A stretch of DNA of 64,000 nt, taken from positions 4,965 to 68,964 of the forward strand of contig JAGZOA010000009.1 in the NCBI GenBank assembly GCA_018363335.1, written 5' to 3'. Under the pieces are notes generated by a model. It did no database searches and was not told where the DNA came from. It saw only the letters and a list, made by a program, of their open reading frames with translations. Of the stretch, positions 16,272 to 40,831 are shown piece after piece. The translations under genes and the position numbers were made by a program. The stretch comes from Haemophilus parainfluenzae (GTDB lineage Bacteria; Pseudomonadota; Gammaproteobacteria; Enterobacterales; Pasteurellaceae). How positions within the stretch are numbered: position 1 is the first letter of the stretch; every line of letters starts with the position of its first letter.

Positions 16272-16347
16272 TGGTGGGCTGTGAGAGGCTCGAACTCTCG
16301 ACCGACGGATTAAGAGTCCGCTGCTCTACCAACTGAGCTAACAACCC
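16272..16347 (-). tRNA. tRNA-Lys with anticodon CUU (loop CUCUUAA)
   Basis: Cloverleaf reads GGGUUGUUAGCUCAGUUGGUAGAGCAGCGGACUCUUAAUCCGUCGGUCGAGAGUUCGAGCCUCUCACAGCCCACCA on minus strand. Confidence 0.8.
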
Positions 16348-16377
16348 AACCGGTTAAAAATGATTTGATAAATGGAT

Positions 16378-16453
16378 GGTGGGTCGTGAAGGATTCGAAC
16401 CTTCGACCAACGGATTAAAAGTCCGCTGCTCTACCGACTGAGCTAACGACCCA
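16378..16453 (-). tRNA. tRNA-Lys (UUU)
   Basis: GGGUCGUUAGCUCAGUCGGUAGAGCAGCGGACUUUUAAUCCGUUGGUCGAAGGUUCGAAUCCUUCACGACCCACCA. Confidence 0.9.
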
Positions 16454-16477
16454 TCAGGGAATGCTTAAAAATAAAAG

Positions 16478-16553
16478 TGGTGGGTCGTGAAGGATTCGAA
16501 CCTTCGACCAACGGATTAAAAGTCCGCTGCTCTACCGACTGAGCTAACGACCC
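16478..16553 (-). tRNA. tRNA-Lys (UUU), identical second copy
   Basis: Identical sequence to the preceding copy. Confidence 0.9.
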
Positions 16554-34385: not shown

Positions 34386-37013
34386 TTATAGCCCTTTTAA
34401 ATCCTTATCTAATAAACGAGCTAGCAACAAAATACCGTCTTTAAAGCGATACTCTGCATATTCTGCTTGTGCATAATATTCACCTTTCCCTTCTGCAAAG
34501 AAATAATCTTGGCTTGGTAATTCAGGAAGCCAACCTTTATAACGAATTGGCAAATAAACATTTGGTGTGCAATGTTTAAAATCTGTTGGTATCTCTGATT
34601 GCGCCTCACAAAATGTCGCAACATGATTTTTATCAAGATGAACAAGGATATACGCTTTTTTTCCCGAAGGACTTGATTCATCTATACCAGTGGTTTCATT
34701 AGATTCAACAGTATCAATAGGTTCATTGCTATCAAGGGATTCATTCGATTCAGATAAAACCTGACTTTGCTGAAACTCAGATAAAATAGCGTAATTCAAT
34801 ACCATATAATCGCCTTGCATCAATGAACGAGGATCCACAGGGGCGATTTTTAAGACAACAGGCTTACCGGTAGCTAGCACATCTTCAAATTGCTGTACTT
34901 TATAGTTCACCGCCCCCAATAAGGCAATCACAAAGACACCAACAAGCCAAATCGGTGCTTTAAAAACAGAATGGTTTTCGACCGCACTTTGTGAAGGCGT
35001 TTTATAACGAGCATGCAAGAATAAAGTAACAATCGCAAAAATAACGGCAAAGCTCACTAACAATGCTCCTTTATAGAGCAATGGGATGCTCAATTGGTAA
35101 TAGAACCCACCTAAATAAACAACAAAGGCAAATACCAAAAGACCGAAGAACGCACGACTGTCTGTCCAATAAACGAGCAATAATAATGCTGTTAAATATA
35201 AAATGGCGGGTATTCCAACAAAGCCTAATGCAAACAAGCTTAATGCCAATAAAATTAGCACTGCTTCCGTGTGTTTGGATTCACTATGCTTATTCATTAG
35301 TGCATAGACAATTAACGGTAATGCACAGATAAGCAGATATAAGATATGGCTAACATCAAACTGAAAGTGTGTCCAAAATTGTCTACTTAAAACTTGCAAT
35401 ACATTATCAAGATTCATCGTGTCTGCTGACATGACATCACTTGAAACATCTGTATCAATAAGACCATAATCTACCCAAGGAAGCGCCATATACGACGGCA
35501 TAGAGATCCATAGAGAGAATAATACGGTTCCCCAAGCAATAGGCTTTAAATGAATTCGCGCTGATTGATTAGGTCGCATGACCCAATAAAAGAGTGCAAT
35601 CGAAATCAGTAGCTGAATTTTATTAAACCATGCGTTATTAAACCATATGTCATTCAAGCTGTAATTATGGAAATATAGATTATAGGAAACTTGCCAATAA
35701 ACGAGAAGCTGGACAACCAATAAAATTCTCACCAAAGAATTCGGCATCAATTTGTAGCTAACGATAATAATGGCTGTAAAAATCAGTGTGGAGATAAAGA
35801 TAGCGAAATTTGAACCTTCTCTATATTCATATCCGAATAAAAGAAAAAAATCATTAAATTTAACAAGCAAATAGAACCCTAAAAAACTATTTGCGATCAG
35901 AAAAAATAAACCTGCTAAAATTGTAGTGTATTCCTTTTTATCTTCATTTAAGGTAATCGACCAAGCTATACCAAATAAAAGAATACCAACAATGAATGTA
36001 CTAGACTTATCTAAACCTAAAGAAAAAAATAACCAAACGCCTATCGTCACTAGCGCTGTCAATAAAGCTATCATCCATAGTATTGAAATCGCCCAATGGA
36101 ATTTCTTATTATTTGGATATTCTTGTTTATAGCGTTTCACTAACCACTTGATTGCCATGACTGTGAAAATAAAGCCAATCAATCCTAAAACCACCCCCTC
36201 TTCTACACCACGAATCAAAAGAGATGCCAAAAAGCAATAAGCGCCAAGTAAGGCTATGACTGAAATAATTAAATTAATAAAATCAAAGCGATATTTGTGA
36301 TATACATAAAGTGCGATTAAGGCAGGAATAGCAATTAGCAAAGAACTGAGTGATGAACGACCAAGCTCACCCCAAGCATAAGCATAAAAGTACACATCAT
36401 AAATTACTATTAAACCGAATAAACTGGCAAAAGTCAGTACTAGAAATACTTTGGGTAAAATACGCCAATGTTGATCATGAAAAGTTTTACTGAATAATTC
36501 CGATATCACAAGTAATCCAGCATTAATCAACACGGCATAACACATTGAGTTATGCGAGTTTTGTTCATTAAATAAATAAAACGCAACATTGGCGGTGGCG
36601 GCAAATAATAATGCAGAGGCCACATTCGGAAATAATAATAAAAGTGGAAGTTGGCAAAGTGTCCAAACAGCAAATAACTGCCATACATCGGCCCCTGTTT
36701 GATAGGTTTGGCCGACTAAGGCAAATAAACCGCCAATCAAGACAGAAACAACAAAAAAGAGGCTATATGTCTTCCACTTTAATTTTTCTTTGGCTTGTCG
36801 ACGACTCTCTCGAATAAAGCAATAAATACCTAATACCACTGTCACCACAAGCAATGTTTGTAAGCCATAAATTTTGGCTAAATCAGAAAAATAATCTAAA
36901 TTAGCTGCAATTAACGTGACTACTCCACTCGTTAAAAATCCGACGGTTAATAATAAAAACAGTAAATTTAAATAACGTTGCCAAGAAAGATTAAAAAGGC
37001 CTGTTGTATTCAT
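34386..37013 (-). CDS. large polytopic membrane protein with C-terminal soluble domain carrying GDYxxLxY motif (DUF2157/DUF4401/GDYXXLXY-type architecture)
   Basis: 875 aa, more than 20 predicted TM helices, C-terminus ...DPRSLMQGDYMVLNYAI...; contains internal USS, so native. Confidence 0.55.
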   Translation of the reverse strand: MNTTGLFNLSWQRYLNLLFLLLTVGFLTSGVVTLIAANLDYFSDLAKIYGLQTLLVVTVVLGIYCFIRESRRQAKEKLKWKTYSLFFVVSVLIGGLFALVGQTYQTGADVWQLFAVWTLCQLPLLLLFPNVASALLFAATANVAFYLFNEQNSHNSMCYAVLINAGLLVISELFSKTFHDQHWRILPKVFLVLTFASLFGLIVIYDVYFYAYAWGELGRSSLSSLLIAIPALIALYVYHKYRFDFINLIISVIALLGAYCFLASLLIRGVEEGVVLGLIGFIFTVMAIKWLVKRYKQEYPNNKKFHWAISILWMIALLTALVTIGVWLFFSLGLDKSSTFIVGILLFGIAWSITLNEDKKEYTTILAGLFFLIANSFLGFYLLVKFNDFFLLFGYEYREGSNFAIFISTLIFTAIIIVSYKLMPNSLVRILLVVQLLVYWQVSYNLYFHNYSLNDIWFNNAWFNKIQLLISIALFYWVMRPNQSARIHLKPIAWGTVLFSLWISMPSYMALPWVDYGLIDTDVSSDVMSADTMNLDNVLQVLSRQFWTHFQFDVSHILYLLICALPLIVYALMNKHSESKHTEAVLILLALSLFALGFVGIPAILYLTALLLLVYWTDSRAFFGLLVFAFVVYLGGFYYQLSIPLLYKGALLVSFAVIFAIVTLFLHARYKTPSQSAVENHSVFKAPIWLVGVFVIALLGAVNYKVQQFEDVLATGKPVVLKIAPVDPRSLMQGDYMVLNYAILSEFQQSQVLSESNESLDSNEPIDTVESNETTGIDESSPSGKKAYILVHLDKNHVATFCEAQSEIPTDFKHCTPNVYLPIRYKGWLPELPSQDYFFAEGKGEYYAQAEYAEYRFKDGILLLARLLDKDLKGL

Positions 37014-37181: not shown

Positions 37182-37589
37182 ATGCAAATTTTACACACAA
37201 TGCTTCGAGTAGGTGATTTAGACCGCTCTATTAAGTTTTATCAAGATGTTTTAGGTATGCGTTTATTGCGTACGAGTGAAAACCCAGAATATAAATATAC
37301 GCTTGCTTTTTTAGGTTACGAAGATGGCGCAAGCGCTGCAGAAATTGAATTAACATACAACTGGGGCGTAGATAAATATGAACAAGGTACAGCATATGGA
37401 CATATTGCTATCGGCGTTGATGATATTTATGCTATTTGTGAAGCAGTTCGTGCAAGTGGTGGTAAAGTGACTCGCGAACCAGGCCCTGTTAAAGGTGGTA
37501 CAACCGTTATTGCTTTCGTTGAAGATCCAGATGGCTATAAAATTGAATTTATCGAAAATAAAAGCTCAAAATCTGGTCTAGGCAATTAA
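37182..37589 (+). CDS. gloA: lactoylglutathione lyase (glyoxalase I)
   Basis: 135 aa, [20 protein letters not shown] matches GloA. Confidence 0.95.
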
Positions 37590-37622
37590 TTAAAAGTGCG
37601 GTTGATTTTTTCGCTCTTTTAT

Positions 37623-37663: not shown

Positions 37664-38353
37664 ATGTCCAATTCTCAAGAAATTCCTTATCACCACCAAT
37701 TAAAAAATCGTTTTCGCGGCTACTTTCCTGTCATTATTGATGTGGAAACAGCGGGATTTGATGCAAAAAAAGATGCGCTTTTAGAGCTTGCGGCAATCAC
37801 CTTAAAAATGGATGAGAATGGCAATTTACAACCTGACCAAAAATGCCATTTTCATATTGAACCATTTGAGGGGGCGAATATTAATCCCGAATCTCTCAAA
37901 TTTAATGGGATTGATATTCACAATCCATTGCGTGGTGCCGTATCTGAATTAGATGCGATCACGGGATTGTTCCAAATGGTGCGTCGTGGACAAAAAGATG
38001 CAGAATGTCAGCGTTCTATCATCGTGGCACATAATGCGGCTTTTGACCAAAGCTTCGTGATGGCTGCGGCTGAACGTACGGGTGTAAAACGCAATCCATT
38101 CCACCCTTTTGGAATGTTTGATACGGCAACACTTGCAGGTTTTATGTTTGGGCAAACGGTGCTCGTCAAGGCGTGCCAAGCGGCAAAAATTCCTTTTGAT
38201 GGCAAACAAGCACACTCCGCACTATATGATACTGAACGTACCGCAGAATTATTTTGCTATATGGTCAATCATTTAAAAAATCTCGGGGGATTCCCACATA
38301 TTGCTCAAACAGATGAAACGGAAAAAACAGATGAAAATCAGACCGCACTTTAA
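37664..38353 (+). CDS. rnt: ribonuclease T
   Basis: 229 aa DEDDh exonuclease ([12 protein letters not shown]..., HSALYD). Confidence 0.9.
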
Positions 38354-38378: not shown

Positions 38379-38407
38379 TTGCAATCATTTCCGGTTTACC
38401 GTATTTT
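38379..38407 (+). promoter_or_regulatory. sigma70-like promoter TTGCAA-N17-TATTTT upstream of leader peptide
   Basis: Hexamers read directly. Confidence 0.45.
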
Positions 38408-38449
38408 AAAAAGTAATTCAATTTAGTTATCTAAATAAGAGAGTTTCAA

Positions 38450-38494
38450 ATGAACTTTATCCTTCGTCACCATCATCGCCATTCAACTGAATAA
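38450..38494 (+). CDS. putative 14-aa leader peptide MNFILRHHHRHSTE (4 His codons in 5, CAC CAT CAT CGC CAT) with SD AAGAGAG
   Basis: Short ORF with SD 8 nt upstream; His-codon run; followed by alternative pairing segments and a terminator. Confidence 0.45.
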   Translation: MNFILRHHHRHSTE

Positions 38495-38563
38495 TCTTTC
38501 AGGCTGTTGGCGTGCTTGGAAGATTTCTTCCGAGCTGACAAGATAAAGATCAAAAAAATCTTA

Positions 38564-38598
38564 CCCCTCGGAAGGCAACTTTCGAGGGGTTTTGTTTT
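38564..38598 (+). terminator. attenuator terminator CCCCTCG(g)AA...TTCGAGGGG plus TTTTGTTTT; 5' arm (CTCGGAAG, 38567-38574) can alternatively pair with CTTCCGAG (38527-38534)
   Basis: Complementary segments identified directly; classic antiterminator/terminator arrangement about 100 nt upstream of transporter gene. Confidence 0.5.
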
Positions 38599-38700
38599 AT
38601 TATTAATTTACAGGAGTTTATTACTATGCGACATTTAATCTTAAATCAATTTTCTTTTACGCGACCTTTTTCTTTTAATTAATCAATAAGGAACAACAAT

Positions 38701-40053
38701 ATGTTATCGAATCCCGTTGTTATTTCAATTGTCGTGCTACTGGCGTTAAGCTTGCTGCGCGTAAACGTGGTTATCGCACTTGTGATTTCCGCTCTAACTG
38801 CAGGCTTATGTGGTGACTTAGGTTTAAGTAAAACCATTGAAGCCTTTACAGGTGGTTTAGGTGGTGGTGCTGAAGTAGCGATGAACTACGCCATGTTAGG
38901 CGCATTTGCCATTGCGATTTCAAAATCTGGCATCACTGATTTGCTTGCCTACAAAATCATTACCCGAATGAATAAAACACCAACCGGCAAAAATTTAGCT
39001 TGGTTTAAATATACGCTACTTAGTATTTTACTTTTATTCGCCATTTCATCCCAAAACTTACTCCCAGTGCACATTGCGTTTATCCCGATTGTTGTGCCAC
39101 CGCTACTTTCTATTTTTAACCGTTTAAAAATCGACCGTCGTGCAGTCGCTTGTATTATTACCTTCGGTTTAACGGCAACCTATATGATCTTACCGGTTGG
39201 TTTCGGGAAAATCTTTATCGAAAGCGTTTTAGTAAAAAATATCAATCTTGCTGGTGCATCACTCGGTTTACAAACCAGTGTAGGTGAAGTTTCTTTTGCT
39301 ATGCTTATCCCTGTGATTGGTATGATTCTTGGTTTACTCACCGCTGTATTTGTTACCTATCGCAAACCGCGCGAGTATGTGGTGACAACGGCAGAACCAA
39401 CTACAGCTGAAATTGAACAACACATTGCAAACATTAAACCTATTCAAATTACCGCAAGTGTGATCGCCATTGTCGCGACTTTTGCTACACAGCTTTTCAC
39501 AAGCTCTACAATTATTGGTGGTTTAGTTGGTTTAGCAATTTTCGGTGTATTCGGTATCTTCAAACTCAAGGAAAGTAACGATATTTTCCAACAAGGCTTA
39601 CGTTTAATGGCAATGATCGGCTTTGTTATGATTGCTGCCTCTGGTTTCGCTAATGTGATTAATACCACAAGCGGTGTGAAAGAGTTAGTTGATGCACTTT
39701 CAACCGGTGCAATTCAAAGTAAAGGCGTTGCGGCATTCTTAATGTTACTTGTTGGGTTATTGATTACCATGGGTATTGGTTCTTCTTTCTCTACTGTACC
39801 AATTATCACCTCAATTTATGTACCACTTTGTCTCTCTTTTGGCTTCTCACCACTTGCGACAGTGGCTATCGTAGGTGTAGCAGCAGCATTAGGAGATGCG
39901 GGTTCACCGGCTTCTGACTCAACACTTGGGCCGACATCCGGTTTGAATATAGATGGTAAACACGACCACATTTGGGATTCTGTTGTGCCAACCTTTATTC
40001 ACTACAATATCCCATTATTAGCGTTCGGTTGGATTGCAGCCATGACCCTTTAA
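38701..40053 (+). CDS. IT-superfamily permease (NhaC/YuiF-like Na+/H+ antiporter family); candidate histidine transporter
   Basis: 450 aa, about 11-12 TM; N-terminal LLRVNVVIALVISALTAGLCGDLG...GGLGGGAEVAMNYAMLGAF pattern typical of NhaC/GntP-type ion-transporter-superfamily carriers. Confidence 0.55.
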   Translation: MLSNPVVISIVVLLALSLLRVNVVIALVISALTAGLCGDLGLSKTIEAFTGGLGGGAEVAMNYAMLGAFAIAISKSGITDLLAYKIITRMNKTPTGKNLAWFKYTLLSILLLFAISSQNLLPVHIAFIPIVVPPLLSIFNRLKIDRRAVACIITFGLTATYMILPVGFGKIFIESVLVKNINLAGASLGLQTSVGEVSFAMLIPVIGMILGLLTAVFVTYRKPREYVVTTAEPTTAEIEQHIANIKPIQITASVIAIVATFATQLFTSSTIIGGLVGLAIFGVFGIFKLKESNDIFQQGLRLMAMIGFVMIAASGFANVINTTSGVKELVDALSTGAIQSKGVAAFLMLLVGLLITMGIGSSFSTVPIITSIYVPLCLSFGFSPLATVAIVGVAAALGDAGSPASDSTLGPTSGLNIDGKHDHIWDSVVPTFIHYNIPLLAFGWIAAMTL

Positions 40054-40091
40054 TCGTTATAATCCCTGCATACATTATGCGGGGATTTTTT

Positions 40092-40673
40092 ATGTCTATT
40101 CAATCATTACTCAATACGCTCGAGCAAAAAGTACAGCAACTGACTCAAGCCTATCAAACTGACTCTGATAAAAAAATCAACGCGAAATTTAACCGCACTT
40201 TATTTACCGAAGATTTTGAAACCGTCGGTTTTTATCTCAAAGAAATCCAGCAGAGCTTAACTAAGCTATCTAATATCCTCCATCAAAATGAAGAGCAAAT
40301 TGTATTTATGGCAGAACATCTTTTAGGGCAATGTACCGTCTTGACTGAAGCCATGAATCGCAAGCATAAAAAGCCCATTCAACCTAAAATAGCAGAGCCA
40401 CAAGTTGCAAGTAGTAAATCACAACATAGCATTCATCGTCTCCCTCCTAGAGAGCGTCTAGAAAAGTATTATGAAGCCTTGCAGCAACTCACGGAAAAAT
40501 ACGAAGAAGCCAAAGCACAAGCTAATACGGCTCAAACAGATATTCAACGAGATATGCATAAGCAAACAGCCTCAATTTATTTAACGCGTCGTCAAAAATG
40601 TTTAGAAGCGATTGAGACCTTAGAAGAATACCTTGCCTTTAAAGAGGCCCAAGAAAGTGCGGTCAAAAAATAA
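40092..40673 (+). CDS. priC: primosomal replication protein N'' (PriC)-like (ORF track 39972 start is too far upstream; start at MSIQSLL)
   Basis: FNRTLFTEDF / FMAEHLLGQ segments resemble E. coli PriC FDRHLFQT / WLAEHLAAQ; basic helical protein about 194 aa. Confidence 0.45.
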   Translation: MSIQSLLNTLEQKVQQLTQAYQTDSDKKINAKFNRTLFTEDFETVGFYLKEIQQSLTKLSNILHQNEEQIVFMAEHLLGQCTVLTEAMNRKHKKPIQPKIAEPQVASSKSQHSIHRLPPRERLEKYYEALQQLTEKYEEAKAQANTAQTDIQRDMHKQTASIYLTRRQKCLEAIETLEEYLAFKEAQESAVKK

Positions 40674-40741: not shown

Positions 40742-40831
40742 TGGCGGAGGAAGTGAGATTCGAACTCACGGAGGGCGTAAACCCTCGCCGGTTTTCAAGA
40801 CCGGTGCCTTCAACCACTCGACCATTCCTCC
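40742..40831 (-). tRNA. tRNA-Ser (UGA), long variable arm
   Basis: GGAGGAAUGGUCGAGUGGUUGAAGGCACCGGUCUUGAAAACCGG... anticodon loop CUUGAAA; near-identical to E. coli tRNA-Ser(UGA). Confidence 0.85.

What the first reader, a model, noticed from the sequence alone, without database searches (positions are those of the whole stretch)
38379..40053. His-codon-rich leader peptide and terminator/antiterminator ahead of a YuiF/NhaC-like transporter: candidate histidine-sensing attenuator controlling a histidine permease
Between rnt and the 450-aa IT-superfamily permease there is a TTGCAA-N17-TATTTT promoter, a 14-codon ORF MNFILRHHHRHSTE with a good SD and 4 His codons in a run of 5, then the segment CTTCCGAG (38527-38534). 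That segment can pair either locally (GGAAGA:TCTTCC) or with CTCGGAAG (38567-38574), which is the 5' arm of a strong rho-independent terminator (CCCCTCG...CGAGGGG plus T-tract, 38564-38598) about 100 nt before the transporter start. This is the logic of amino-acid attenuators (his, leu, thr). It would place an amino-acid permease, not a biosynthetic operon, under ribosome-mediated histidine control. I recall comparative-genomics predictions of His-attenuators upstream of yuiF-like transporters in Pasteurellaceae, so this may match a prediction that has not been experimentally characterised.
Basis: partly seen in the sequence, partly recalled or inferred. Interest (0 to 1): 0.6.

Follow-up and report, generated by a model that had tools for sequence, protein, structure and literature searches.

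The report
Histidine attenuator before a histidine permease
This is a classical ribosome-sensed histidine leader, a short histidine-rich peptide followed by a terminator/antiterminator switch, placed in front of a YuiF-type permease gene of Haemophilus parainfluenzae; it is real and well conserved, but the same arrangement is already catalogued for sister species.

Summary
Between rnt and a 450-aa permease (Pfam PF13726+PF03553) lies a 14-codon ORF, MNFILRHHHRHSTE (38450-38494). It is followed by three hairpins, the last a strong intrinsic terminator (38563-38598).

- **Family match:** Rfam His_leader (RF00514) matches 38470-38597 over its full length at 75.1 bits (threshold 49).
- **Switch logic:** In co-transcriptional folding, a ribosome stalled on the His codons gives B:C plus D:E, the antiterminator. 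No ribosome, or a ribosome at the stop codon, gives C:D plus the terminator.
- **Conservation:** Both conformations stay 98-100% paired in 26 leaders from Haemophilus, Aggregatibacter and Rodentibacter. One pair that exists only in the antiterminator covaries (UG/AU/UA).
- **Prior knowledge:** Sun et al. 2013 already list yuiF in the His-leader regulons of H. influenzae, A. aphrophilus and H. parasuis. A YuiF-type protein is the main histidine transporter of S. aureus.

I rate this a correct call of a known element, never tested experimentally in Pasteurellaceae.

Side observations:
- A second short ORF (MRH...) sits after the terminator and is unexplained.
- The leader is missing in two Rodentibacter species and in more distant genera.

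The parts
38379..38407 (+). Leader promoter P1: -35 TTGCAA (38379-38384), 17-nt spacer, -10 TATTTT (38402-38407)
   Evidence: Read from the sequence. It is 8/12 to consensus and was not called by the scan. TTGCAA and a TAGTTT/TAGCTT -10 occur at the same positions in Haemophilus, Aggregatibacter and Rodentibacter. No transcription start has been mapped.
38439..38443 (+). Shine-Dalgarno of the leader ORF (GAGAG, 6 nt before the ATG)
   Evidence: Relatives carry GGAGA at the same place.
38450..38494 (+). Leader peptide ORF MNFILRHHHRHSTE; His codons at 38468-38476 and 38480-38482
   Evidence: Translation. Orthologous leaders carry 3-5 His codons in nearly all Haemophilus, Aggregatibacter and Rodentibacter loci.
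38470..38597 (+). Rfam RF00514 His_leader match, model positions 1-126 of 126
   Evidence: 75.1 bits against a gathering score of 49, E = 4.5e-10.
38477..38512 (+). Hairpin A:B (38477-38481 with 38508-38512; 38487-38491 with 38498-38502). It forms when no ribosome is on the leader, and the leader stop codon lies inside it.
   Evidence: MFE folds. Two pairs of the outer stem change on both sides: GC/AU and CG/UA.
38493..38525 (+). B:C pairing (38493-38504 with 38514-38525, up to 12 bp, -13 kcal/mol), the first half of the antiterminator
   Evidence: It is the MFE structure when the 5' region up to 38489 or 38495 is masked as under a stalled ribosome. 96.8% of cells are paired in 26 leaders.
38514..38535 (+). 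Hairpin C:D (38514-38522 with 38527-38535, 9 bp, -14 kcal/mol), which holds D away from E so the terminator can form
   Evidence: 100% paired in 26 leaders, with a variable loop.
38526..38575 (+). D:E pairing (38526-38534 with 38567-38575, 9 bp), the antiterminator proper
   Evidence: It is the MFE structure with a stalled ribosome and the nascent 3' end at 38576. It is 100% paired. The pair 38526:38575 covaries as UG 16 / AU 8 / UA 2, although both bases are loop bases in the terminated fold.
38563..38598 (+). Intrinsic terminator E:F (12-bp stem, 4-nt loop) plus the TTTTGTTTT tract
   Evidence: -21.7 kcal/mol for the stem alone. 100% paired in 26 leaders.
38626..38682 (+). Second short ORF (uORF2, MRHLILNQFSFTRPFSFN) with SD AGGAG at 38612-38616. 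Tentative part; role unknown.
   Evidence: The SD, the ATG and the first 3-4 codons are conserved in Haemophilus and some Rodentibacter. There is no peptide-level constraint.
38688..38693 (+). Shine-Dalgarno of the permease gene (AAGGAA, 7 nt before the ATG)
   Evidence: AAGGA is nearly invariant across 19 genera or species.
38701..40053 (+). YuiF-type permease gene (450 aa), ortholog of H. influenzae HI_0325
   Evidence: PF13726 at 2.7e-34 plus PF03553 at 1.7e-74. 87% identity to a protein that JGI names HI_0325. No NCBIfam model matches.
40061..40087 (+). Terminator-like hairpin after the permease gene, which makes the unit monocistronic
   Evidence: priC starts at 40092.

Best explanation
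A ribosome-mediated transcription attenuator of the his-leader type controls a monocistronic YuiF-type permease gene that most likely imports histidine.

Transcription starts at P1 and a ribosome begins translating the 14-codon leader. Three outcomes follow.

- **His-tRNA plentiful:** The ribosome runs to the stop codon at 38492-38494 and covers segments A and B. C then pairs with D, E is left free, the E:F terminator forms, and transcription ends near 38598.
- **His-tRNA scarce:** The ribosome stalls on the His codons (38468-38482) and covers only A. B pairs with C, D is left free and pairs with E before F is made. The terminator cannot form, and RNA polymerase reads into the permease gene.
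- **No translation:** A:B, C:D and E:F all form and transcription terminates.

The net effect is that histidine uptake capacity rises when charged tRNA-His falls.

Shown here by computation: the sequence elements, family membership, the alternative folds and their conservation. Inferred: the in vivo response to histidine, and the transport substrate.
For: - **Family:** Full-length Rfam RF00514 hit at 75.1 bits against a threshold of 49. The E. coli hisL leader scores 131.6 bits with the same model.
- **Fold:** z = -6.4.
- **Staged folding:** With the 5' end free from 38490 or 38496 (stalled ribosome) and the 3' end at 38576, the MFE is B:C plus D:E (-27.9 or -24.6 kcal/mol). With the RNA free from 38508 (ribosome at the stop) or with no ribosome, C:D persists and the terminator forms.
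- **Conservation:** Leader ORFs with 3-5 His codons, an SD and a stop inside hairpin A:B occur upstream of the orthologous gene in Haemophilus, Aggregatibacter and Rodentibacter.
- **Terminated fold:** 99.6% paired, with 3 pairs changed on both sides.
- **Antiterminator:** 98.2% paired. Covariation at 38526:38575 makes sense only for D:E. Sliding the partners by 1-3 columns drops pairing to 27-61%.
- **Stems and loops:** Stems are invariant while loops vary. That is expected when each segment has two partners.
- **Literature:** yuiF is listed under the His leader in three Pasteurellales genomes (PMC3766115). yuiF belongs to HisR regulons, and T-box elements precede histidine biosynthesis and transport genes, in Firmicutes (PMC9413887). 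S. aureus 0846, a YuiF-type protein, is the main histidine transporter by 3H-histidine uptake with complementation (PMC10817146).
Against: - No experiment exists on this leader in any Pasteurellaceae species, as far as the searchable library shows.
- At equilibrium the terminator fold always wins (-35.7 kcal/mol for C:D plus E:F; masked full-length folds). The switch therefore depends on kinetics that I could only imitate by truncating the RNA.
- There are only 4 His codons, interrupted by an Arg codon, against 7 in a row in E. coli.
- Covariation is sparse because the stems hardly vary.
- The promoter is a weak consensus match.
- I could not retrieve S. aureus 0846 or B. subtilis YuiF to compare sequences directly.
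- Distant homologs sit in varied contexts with no Rfam element upstream. The substrate may therefore differ across the family.
- The leader is dispensable in evolution. It is absent in two Rodentibacter species and in at least nine other genera or taxa.
Confidence: 0.82

Rival explanations
1. The attenuator is real, but the permease carries something other than histidine. It could be Na+/H+, as the usual annotation says, or another amino acid.
For: The Pfam names are 'Na+/H+ antiporter', and NCBI and JGI name the orthologs the same way. Distant family members lie next to unrelated genes (methylamine methyltransferase, TrkA, citrate synthase) and have no histidine-linked RNA element upstream.
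Against: A histidine-codon attenuator in front of an ion antiporter has no physiological logic. No NCBIfam model, NhaC included, matches. The S. aureus YuiF-type protein transports histidine, and its mutant phenotype is not shared by mutants in five other predicted cation:proton antiporter genes, including two NhaC-type ones. yuiF is co-regulated with his genes by three unrelated mechanisms in different phyla.
Confidence: 0.1
2. The main product is the short terminated leader RNA or its peptide, acting in trans. Control of the permease would then be secondary.
For: Most transcripts would end at the terminator in rich conditions, giving an abundant RNA of roughly 185 nt. The his-operon leader of NTHi is seen as a highly expressed small transcript (PMC4659474).
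Against: Nothing in the sequence points to a target. The conserved segments are exactly those needed for the cis switch. The peptide outside the His run varies.
Confidence: 0.04
3. It is a chance combination. The hairpin is just the rnt terminator, and the His-rich ORF is accidental.
For: His-codon runs are not very rare in this window, with five found in any frame. The terminator is downstream of rnt.
Against: Rfam E = 4.5e-10 over the full model. A promoter lies between rnt and the leader. The terminator is 210 nt beyond the rnt stop. The ORF and both folds are conserved across three genera. Loci that lack the leader also lack this terminator.
Confidence: 0.02

Closest known systems
E. coli / Salmonella hisL-hisG attenuator (Rfam RF00514; the alternative-stem model with stems A:B, C:D and E:F versus B:C and D:E, from my own knowledge of the classical work)
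   Same: - A short leader ORF with a His-codon run and a stop codon inside the first hairpin.
- Three consecutive hairpins ending in an intrinsic terminator.
- The same chain of alternative pairings.
- Both match the same covariance model over its full length.
   Different: - It controls a single permease gene instead of the biosynthetic operon.
- It has 4 His codons interrupted by Arg, against 7 in a row.
- Its model score is lower (75 against 132 bits).
- About 100 nt of unstructured spacer, holding a further short ORF, lies between the terminator and the gene.
His leader upstream of yuiF in H. influenzae Rd KW20, A. aphrophilus NJ8700 and H. parasuis SH0165 (Sun et al. 2013, PMC3766115, Additional file 1; RegPrecise)
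   Same: It is the orthologous gene with the same family of leader. Leaders retrieved here from H. haemolyticus, H. quentini, H. seminalis and an HI_0325-like metagenomic contig share the core sequence almost base for base.
   Different: H. parainfluenzae itself is not among the listed genomes. Its leader has CGC in place of a His codon. Its A:B stem carries G-C where most others have A-U. The published entry is a list item, with no structural or experimental analysis.
HisR-repressed and T-box(His)-controlled yuiF in Firmicutes (PMC9413887); S. aureus SAUSA300_0846 (PMC10817146)
   Same: It has the same transporter family name. The logic is also the same: histidine uptake is induced when histidine is short.
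   Different: The sensing mechanism is entirely different: a DNA-binding repressor or direct binding of uncharged tRNA, rather than ribosome stalling. I did not measure sequence identity to these proteins.

Membership tests
Rfam RF00514 His_leader (ribosome-mediated histidine attenuator) | Scores at or above the family's gathering threshold over the whole model | tested here: met
   75.1 bits against 49, model positions 1-126 of 126, E = 4.5e-10 on the window.
Rfam RF00514 His_leader (ribosome-mediated histidine attenuator) | A translatable short ORF with a run of His codons, whose end overlaps the first hairpin | tested here: met
   SD GAGAG, ATG 38450, 4 His codons among 5, stop at 38492-38494 inside hairpin A:B. 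The feature is conserved in three genera. Translation itself has not been shown.
Rfam RF00514 His_leader (ribosome-mediated histidine attenuator) | An intrinsic terminator upstream of the regulated gene | tested here: met
   12-bp stem with 7 G-C pairs, a 4-nt loop and a T tract at 38563-38598.
Rfam RF00514 His_leader (ribosome-mediated histidine attenuator) | Mutually exclusive antiterminator pairings whose formation depends on where the ribosome sits | tested here: met
   Staged and masked folding gives B:C plus D:E only for a ribosome on the His codons. These are computed energies, not an experiment.
Rfam RF00514 His_leader (ribosome-mediated histidine attenuator) | Both conformations maintained in evolution | tested here: met
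   99.6% and 98.2% of cells are paired in 26 leaders. Three pairs in the terminated fold and one in the antiterminator change on both sides. The slid controls give 27-61% pairing. Covariation is sparse because the stems are nearly invariant.
Rfam RF00514 His_leader (ribosome-mediated histidine attenuator) | Read-through rises when charged tRNA-His falls | not testable with these tools
   This needs reporter fusions, Term-seq or Northern blots. No such data were found in the library.
YuiF-type histidine permease | Two-domain architecture, Na_H_antiport_2 (PF13726) followed by Na_H_antiporter (PF03553), about 440-450 aa | tested here: met
   PF13726 covers residues 4-89 and PF03553 covers residues 153-444. 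The same architecture appears in every full-length homolog whose context was fetched.
YuiF-type histidine permease | Orthology to the gene called yuiF in published His-leader regulons of Pasteurellales | tested here: met
   87% identity to a protein named HI_0325. The gloA-rnt-leader-permease-priC-rne synteny is the same. yuiF is listed for H. influenzae Rd. Equating that yuiF with HI_0325 is my inference.
YuiF-type histidine permease | Sequence similarity to the characterised S. aureus SAUSA300_0846 or to B. subtilis YuiF | not tested
   Their sequences could not be obtained. The homolog list showed only Pasteurellaceae, and the representatives carried no names.
YuiF-type histidine permease | Transports histidine | not testable with these tools
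   Only the S. aureus protein has uptake data.
NhaC-type Na+/H+ antiporter (the usual database name) | Matches a curated NhaC protein-family model | tested here: not met
   No NCBIfam family matches at E <= 0.001. Only the broad Pfam domain matches. No solved structure is similar by sequence.

The most novel reading that the evidence does not exclude
The unit may hold two ribosome-dependent checkpoints in series. After the classical attenuator comes a second short ORF (38626-38682). Its SD, ATG and first codons (M-(Q)-R/H-H...) are conserved in Haemophilus and some Rodentibacter, always with at least one His codon at position 2-4. It could couple permease expression to His-tRNA a second time, for instance by ribosome occupancy of an otherwise naked, unstructured spacer that shields it from Rho or RNases. 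That would be a tandem leader-peptide arrangement not described for his leaders.
Probability: 0.1. Interest if true: 0.45.

Novelty: already known. Interest (0 to 1): 0.15.

Why it matters
The element shows that H. parainfluenzae, a common human oral and airway commensal, probably ties histidine import to tRNA-His charging. It does so with the same device that enteric bacteria use for histidine synthesis.

This supports re-annotating a gene widely labelled 'Na+/H+ antiporter' as a histidine permease in Pasteurellaceae. It also gives a compact, well-conserved test case for an attenuator in front of a transporter, which has never been verified experimentally.

It does not change what is known about attenuation.

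Tried and rejected
- **Naming distant homologs:** The exhaustive representative search found a compact family: 847 representatives at E <= 0.001 and 152 at E <= 1e-30. None of the ten clusters I looked up carried a name. I therefore could not tie the protein to S. aureus 0846 or B. subtilis YuiF by sequence.
- **Histidine-linked RNA elements upstream of distant homologs:** Six representatives at 35-45% identity and five at 49-74% identity have no Rfam element upstream. One of these is a Neisseria-type locus, recognised by GCCGTCTGAA repeats. That route gave no independent support.
- **Other protein resources:** Solved structures gave no hit, and NCBIfam gave none.
- **Equilibrium folding with a masked 5' end:** The terminator fold always wins. 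Only staged folding of the nascent RNA shows the switch. My first hand-drawn B:C register was wrong (+7.7 kcal/mol); the register found by ViennaRNA was used instead.
- **uORF2 as a conserved peptide:** Rejected. Variable sites are spread 9:9:8 over the three codon positions.
- **An RBS-hiding hairpin between uORF2 and the permease start:** Rejected. The spacer folds worse than all 200 shuffles.
- **Comparison with the his-operon leader of the same genome:** Not possible.
Full report
**Source and context**

The window is Haemophilus parainfluenzae. The permease gene is 96-99% identical to those of many H. parainfluenzae and H. parainfluenzae-like Haemophilus assemblies. The window holds 49 copies of the Haemophilus uptake signal AAGTGCGGT, against 0.2 expected.

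The local gene order is as follows:
- gloA, 37182-37589
- rnt, 37664-38353 (RNase T, TIGR01298)
- a 347-nt intergenic region
- a 450-aa permease, 38701-40053
- a terminator-like hairpin, 40061-40087
- priC, 40092-40673
- a tRNA on the - strand, 40745-40831
- rne on the - strand

**Check of the observation**

- The promoter is TTGCAA 38379-38384, 17 nt, then TATTTT 38402-38407.
- The leader has SD GAGAG at 38439-38443 and an ORF from 38450 to 38494 encoding MNFILRHHHRHSTE.
- CTTCCGAG lies at 38527-38534, and its exact complement CTCGGAAG at 38567-38574.
- The terminator has a 12-bp stem (38563-38574 with 38579-38590) followed by TTTTGTTTT.

The promoter matches consensus at only 8 of 12 positions, so the scan did not report it. 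Both hexamers recur at the same positions in Haemophilus, Aggregatibacter and Rodentibacter.

The 161-nt region folds far better than shuffles, with z = -6.4. Runs of His codons are not unique in the window: five occur in any frame, against 0.46 expected. The other four lie on the opposite strand of long ORFs on the - strand.

**What it is**

Rfam's His_leader model (RF00514) matches 38470-38597 over all 126 model positions at 75.1 bits. The threshold is 49 and E = 4.5e-10 for the whole window. The canonical E. coli hisL leader scores 131.6 bits with the same model.

The minimum-energy fold is three hairpins in a row:
- A:B, 38477-38512
- C:D, 38514-38535
- E:F, the terminator

**How it works**

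I imitated co-transcriptional folding by cutting the RNA at successive 3' ends and hiding the part under a ribosome.
- **Ribosome on the His codons** (RNA free from 38490 or 38496, polymerase just past E at 38576): the best structure is B:C plus D:E, at -27.9 or -24.6 kcal/mol. E is occupied before F exists.
- **Ribosome at the stop codon** (RNA free from 38508): B is hidden, C:D forms, E stays free and the terminator follows.
- **No ribosome:** A:B, C:D and E:F all form.

This is the classical his attenuator scheme, which I know from the literature on Salmonella and E. coli. At equilibrium the terminator fold always wins, so the decision must be kinetic. That part is inference.

**Conservation**

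A leader ORF with 3-5 His codons precedes the orthologous gene in Haemophilus, most Rodentibacter and Aggregatibacter. The species are:
- H. parainfluenzae, H. haemolyticus, H. quentini and H. seminalis
- most Rodentibacter species
- A. actinomycetemcomitans, A. kilianii and A. segnis

Eleven of 20 diverse loci pass the Rfam threshold at 64-86 bits. An HI_0325-like metagenomic contig scores 77.4 bits.

In an alignment of 26 distinct leaders, the stems are almost invariant while the hairpin loops vary. That pattern is expected when each segment must fit two partners.
- The terminated fold is paired in 99.6% of cells. Three pairs change on both sides, two of them in stem A:B (G-C/A-U and C-G/U-A).
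- The antiterminator is paired in 98.2% of cells.
- The pair 38526:38575 joins two bases that are loop bases in the terminated fold. It occurs as U-G (16), A-U (8) and U-A (2), which supports D:E specifically.
- Sliding the partners by 1-3 columns drops pairing to 27-61%.

**Distribution**

The leader is absent from the following loci:
- two Rodentibacter species, where rnt and the permease gene are about 60-70 nt apart (L041, L048)
- Bisgaard taxon 46, Pasteurella langaaensis, Lonepinella, Necropsobacter, an Actinobacillus MAG, P. bettyae, Caviibacterium, Histophilus and Canicola

For nine of these loci there is no hit even at E <= 0.5. A 74%-identical homolog, a Neisseria-type homolog and six more distant representatives also have no leader.

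In the leaderless genera, a promoter-like motif lies about 60 nt before the gene: TAGACAAA, about 16 nt, then TAGTAnATT. The same motif sits between the attenuator terminator and the gene in Aggregatibacter, and in weaker form in H. haemolyticus. It is not recognisable in the window. In H. parainfluenzae the attenuated promoter may therefore be the main one. This is inference.

**The permease**

Its architecture is PF13726 plus PF03553. No NCBIfam model matches, and no solved structure is related by sequence.

The family is small: 847 representatives at E <= 0.001 among 1.84 billion proteins. Orthologs are named 'Na+/H+ antiporter family protein' or 'HI_0325'.

The link to histidine rests on the literature and on the attenuator itself.
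- Sun et al. 2013 list yuiF in the His-leader regulons of H. influenzae Rd, A. aphrophilus and H. parasuis (PMC3766115).
- yuiF is a target of the HisR repressor in many Firmicutes, where His T-boxes also precede histidine biosynthesis and transport genes (PMC9413887).
- S. aureus SAUSA300_0846, described as a YuiF-type permease, is the main histidine transporter by 3H-histidine uptake with complementation (PMC10817146).

I could not obtain those proteins to compare them directly.

**Comparison with what is known, and novelty**

The element is a member of RF00514 by every feature I could test. The specific pairing of a His leader with yuiF in Pasteurellales is already published as a comparative-genomics list entry.

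I found no experimental work on it. The NTHi dual RNA-seq study reports only the his-operon leader (PMC4659474). The only paper mentioning HI0325 is a bioinformatic annotation survey.

I rate interest at 0.15.

**Unexplained remainder**

After the terminator lies a second short ORF, 38626-38682, with a strong SD (AGGAG, 38612-38616). The SD, the ATG and the first codons are conserved across lineages:
- MRH in H. parainfluenzae
- MQRHHH, MQRHH and MQRHYY in the H. haemolyticus group
- MQHH in H. seminalis
- MRHH in the HI_0325-like contig
- MRHY and MQHYH in Rodentibacter

The rest of the peptide is unrelated between lineages. Within H. parainfluenzae, variable sites are spread evenly over the codon positions, 9:9:8. 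The ATG is lost in two H. haemolyticus strains, and the element is absent in Aggregatibacter. The spacer is less structured than every shuffle, z = +2.67, so no hairpin hides the permease ribosome-binding site.

Whether this ORF is a second histidine-sensitive checkpoint, a ribosome-loading site or neutral cannot be decided here.

Noticed in passing
window 38612-38682: There is a second short ORF (MRHLILNQFSFTRPFSFN) with a strong SD between the attenuator terminator and the permease start. Its SD, ATG and first 3-4 codons, always including His, are conserved in Haemophilus and some Rodentibacter. The rest of the peptide is not conserved. It is lost in two H. haemolyticus strains and absent in Aggregatibacter.
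   Followed up: partly
L043 2950-2985, L052, L045, L069, L072, L073, L077-L080 (about 60 nt before the permease ATG); compare window 38640-38690: A promoter-like motif (TAGACAAA, about 16 nt, TAGTAnATT) lies directly upstream of the permease gene in leaderless genera. In Aggregatibacter it lies downstream of the attenuator, which implies an attenuator-independent second promoter there. The motif is degenerate in H. parainfluenzae.
   Followed up: partly
L041 and L048 (Rodentibacter heidelbergensis, R. trehalosifermentans), about 60-70 nt between the rnt stop and the permease ATG: The whole leader and attenuator are missing in these two species, although sister Rodentibacter species have them. 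This looks like a recent clean loss, or a failure to gain.
   Followed up: partly
window, 49 sites, e.g. 37594-37602 (+) after gloA and 38342-38350 (-) just before the rnt stop codon: The Haemophilus-type uptake signal sequence AAGTGCGGT occurs 49 times, against 0.2 expected. Several copies form close inverted pairs between genes (e.g. 7795/7812, 13169/13186, 29547/29564, 61473/61496). This is a known hallmark of Pasteurellaceae.
   Followed up: yes
window 28009, 28742, 33276, 54091 (+ strand): Four other runs of at least 4 His codons in 5 occur, all on the strand opposite to long ORFs on the - strand (checked for the first three). None has the features of a leader peptide.
   Followed up: yes
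window 16275-16553 (-) and 40745-40831 (-): There is a cluster of three tRNA genes, two of them identical. A long-variable-arm tRNA lies between priC and rne.
   Followed up: no
window 34386-37013 (-): This is an 875-aa ORF with many predicted membrane-spanning stretches and a soluble C-terminal part. It lies upstream of gloA and I did not identify it.
   Followed up: no
L088 2501-5409: A distant metagenomic relative carries two tandem YuiF-type genes next to a sigma-54 activator. L089 has one directly after a monomethylamine methyltransferase (MtmB) and its corrinoid protein. This hints that the family is not limited to histidine.
   Followed up: no
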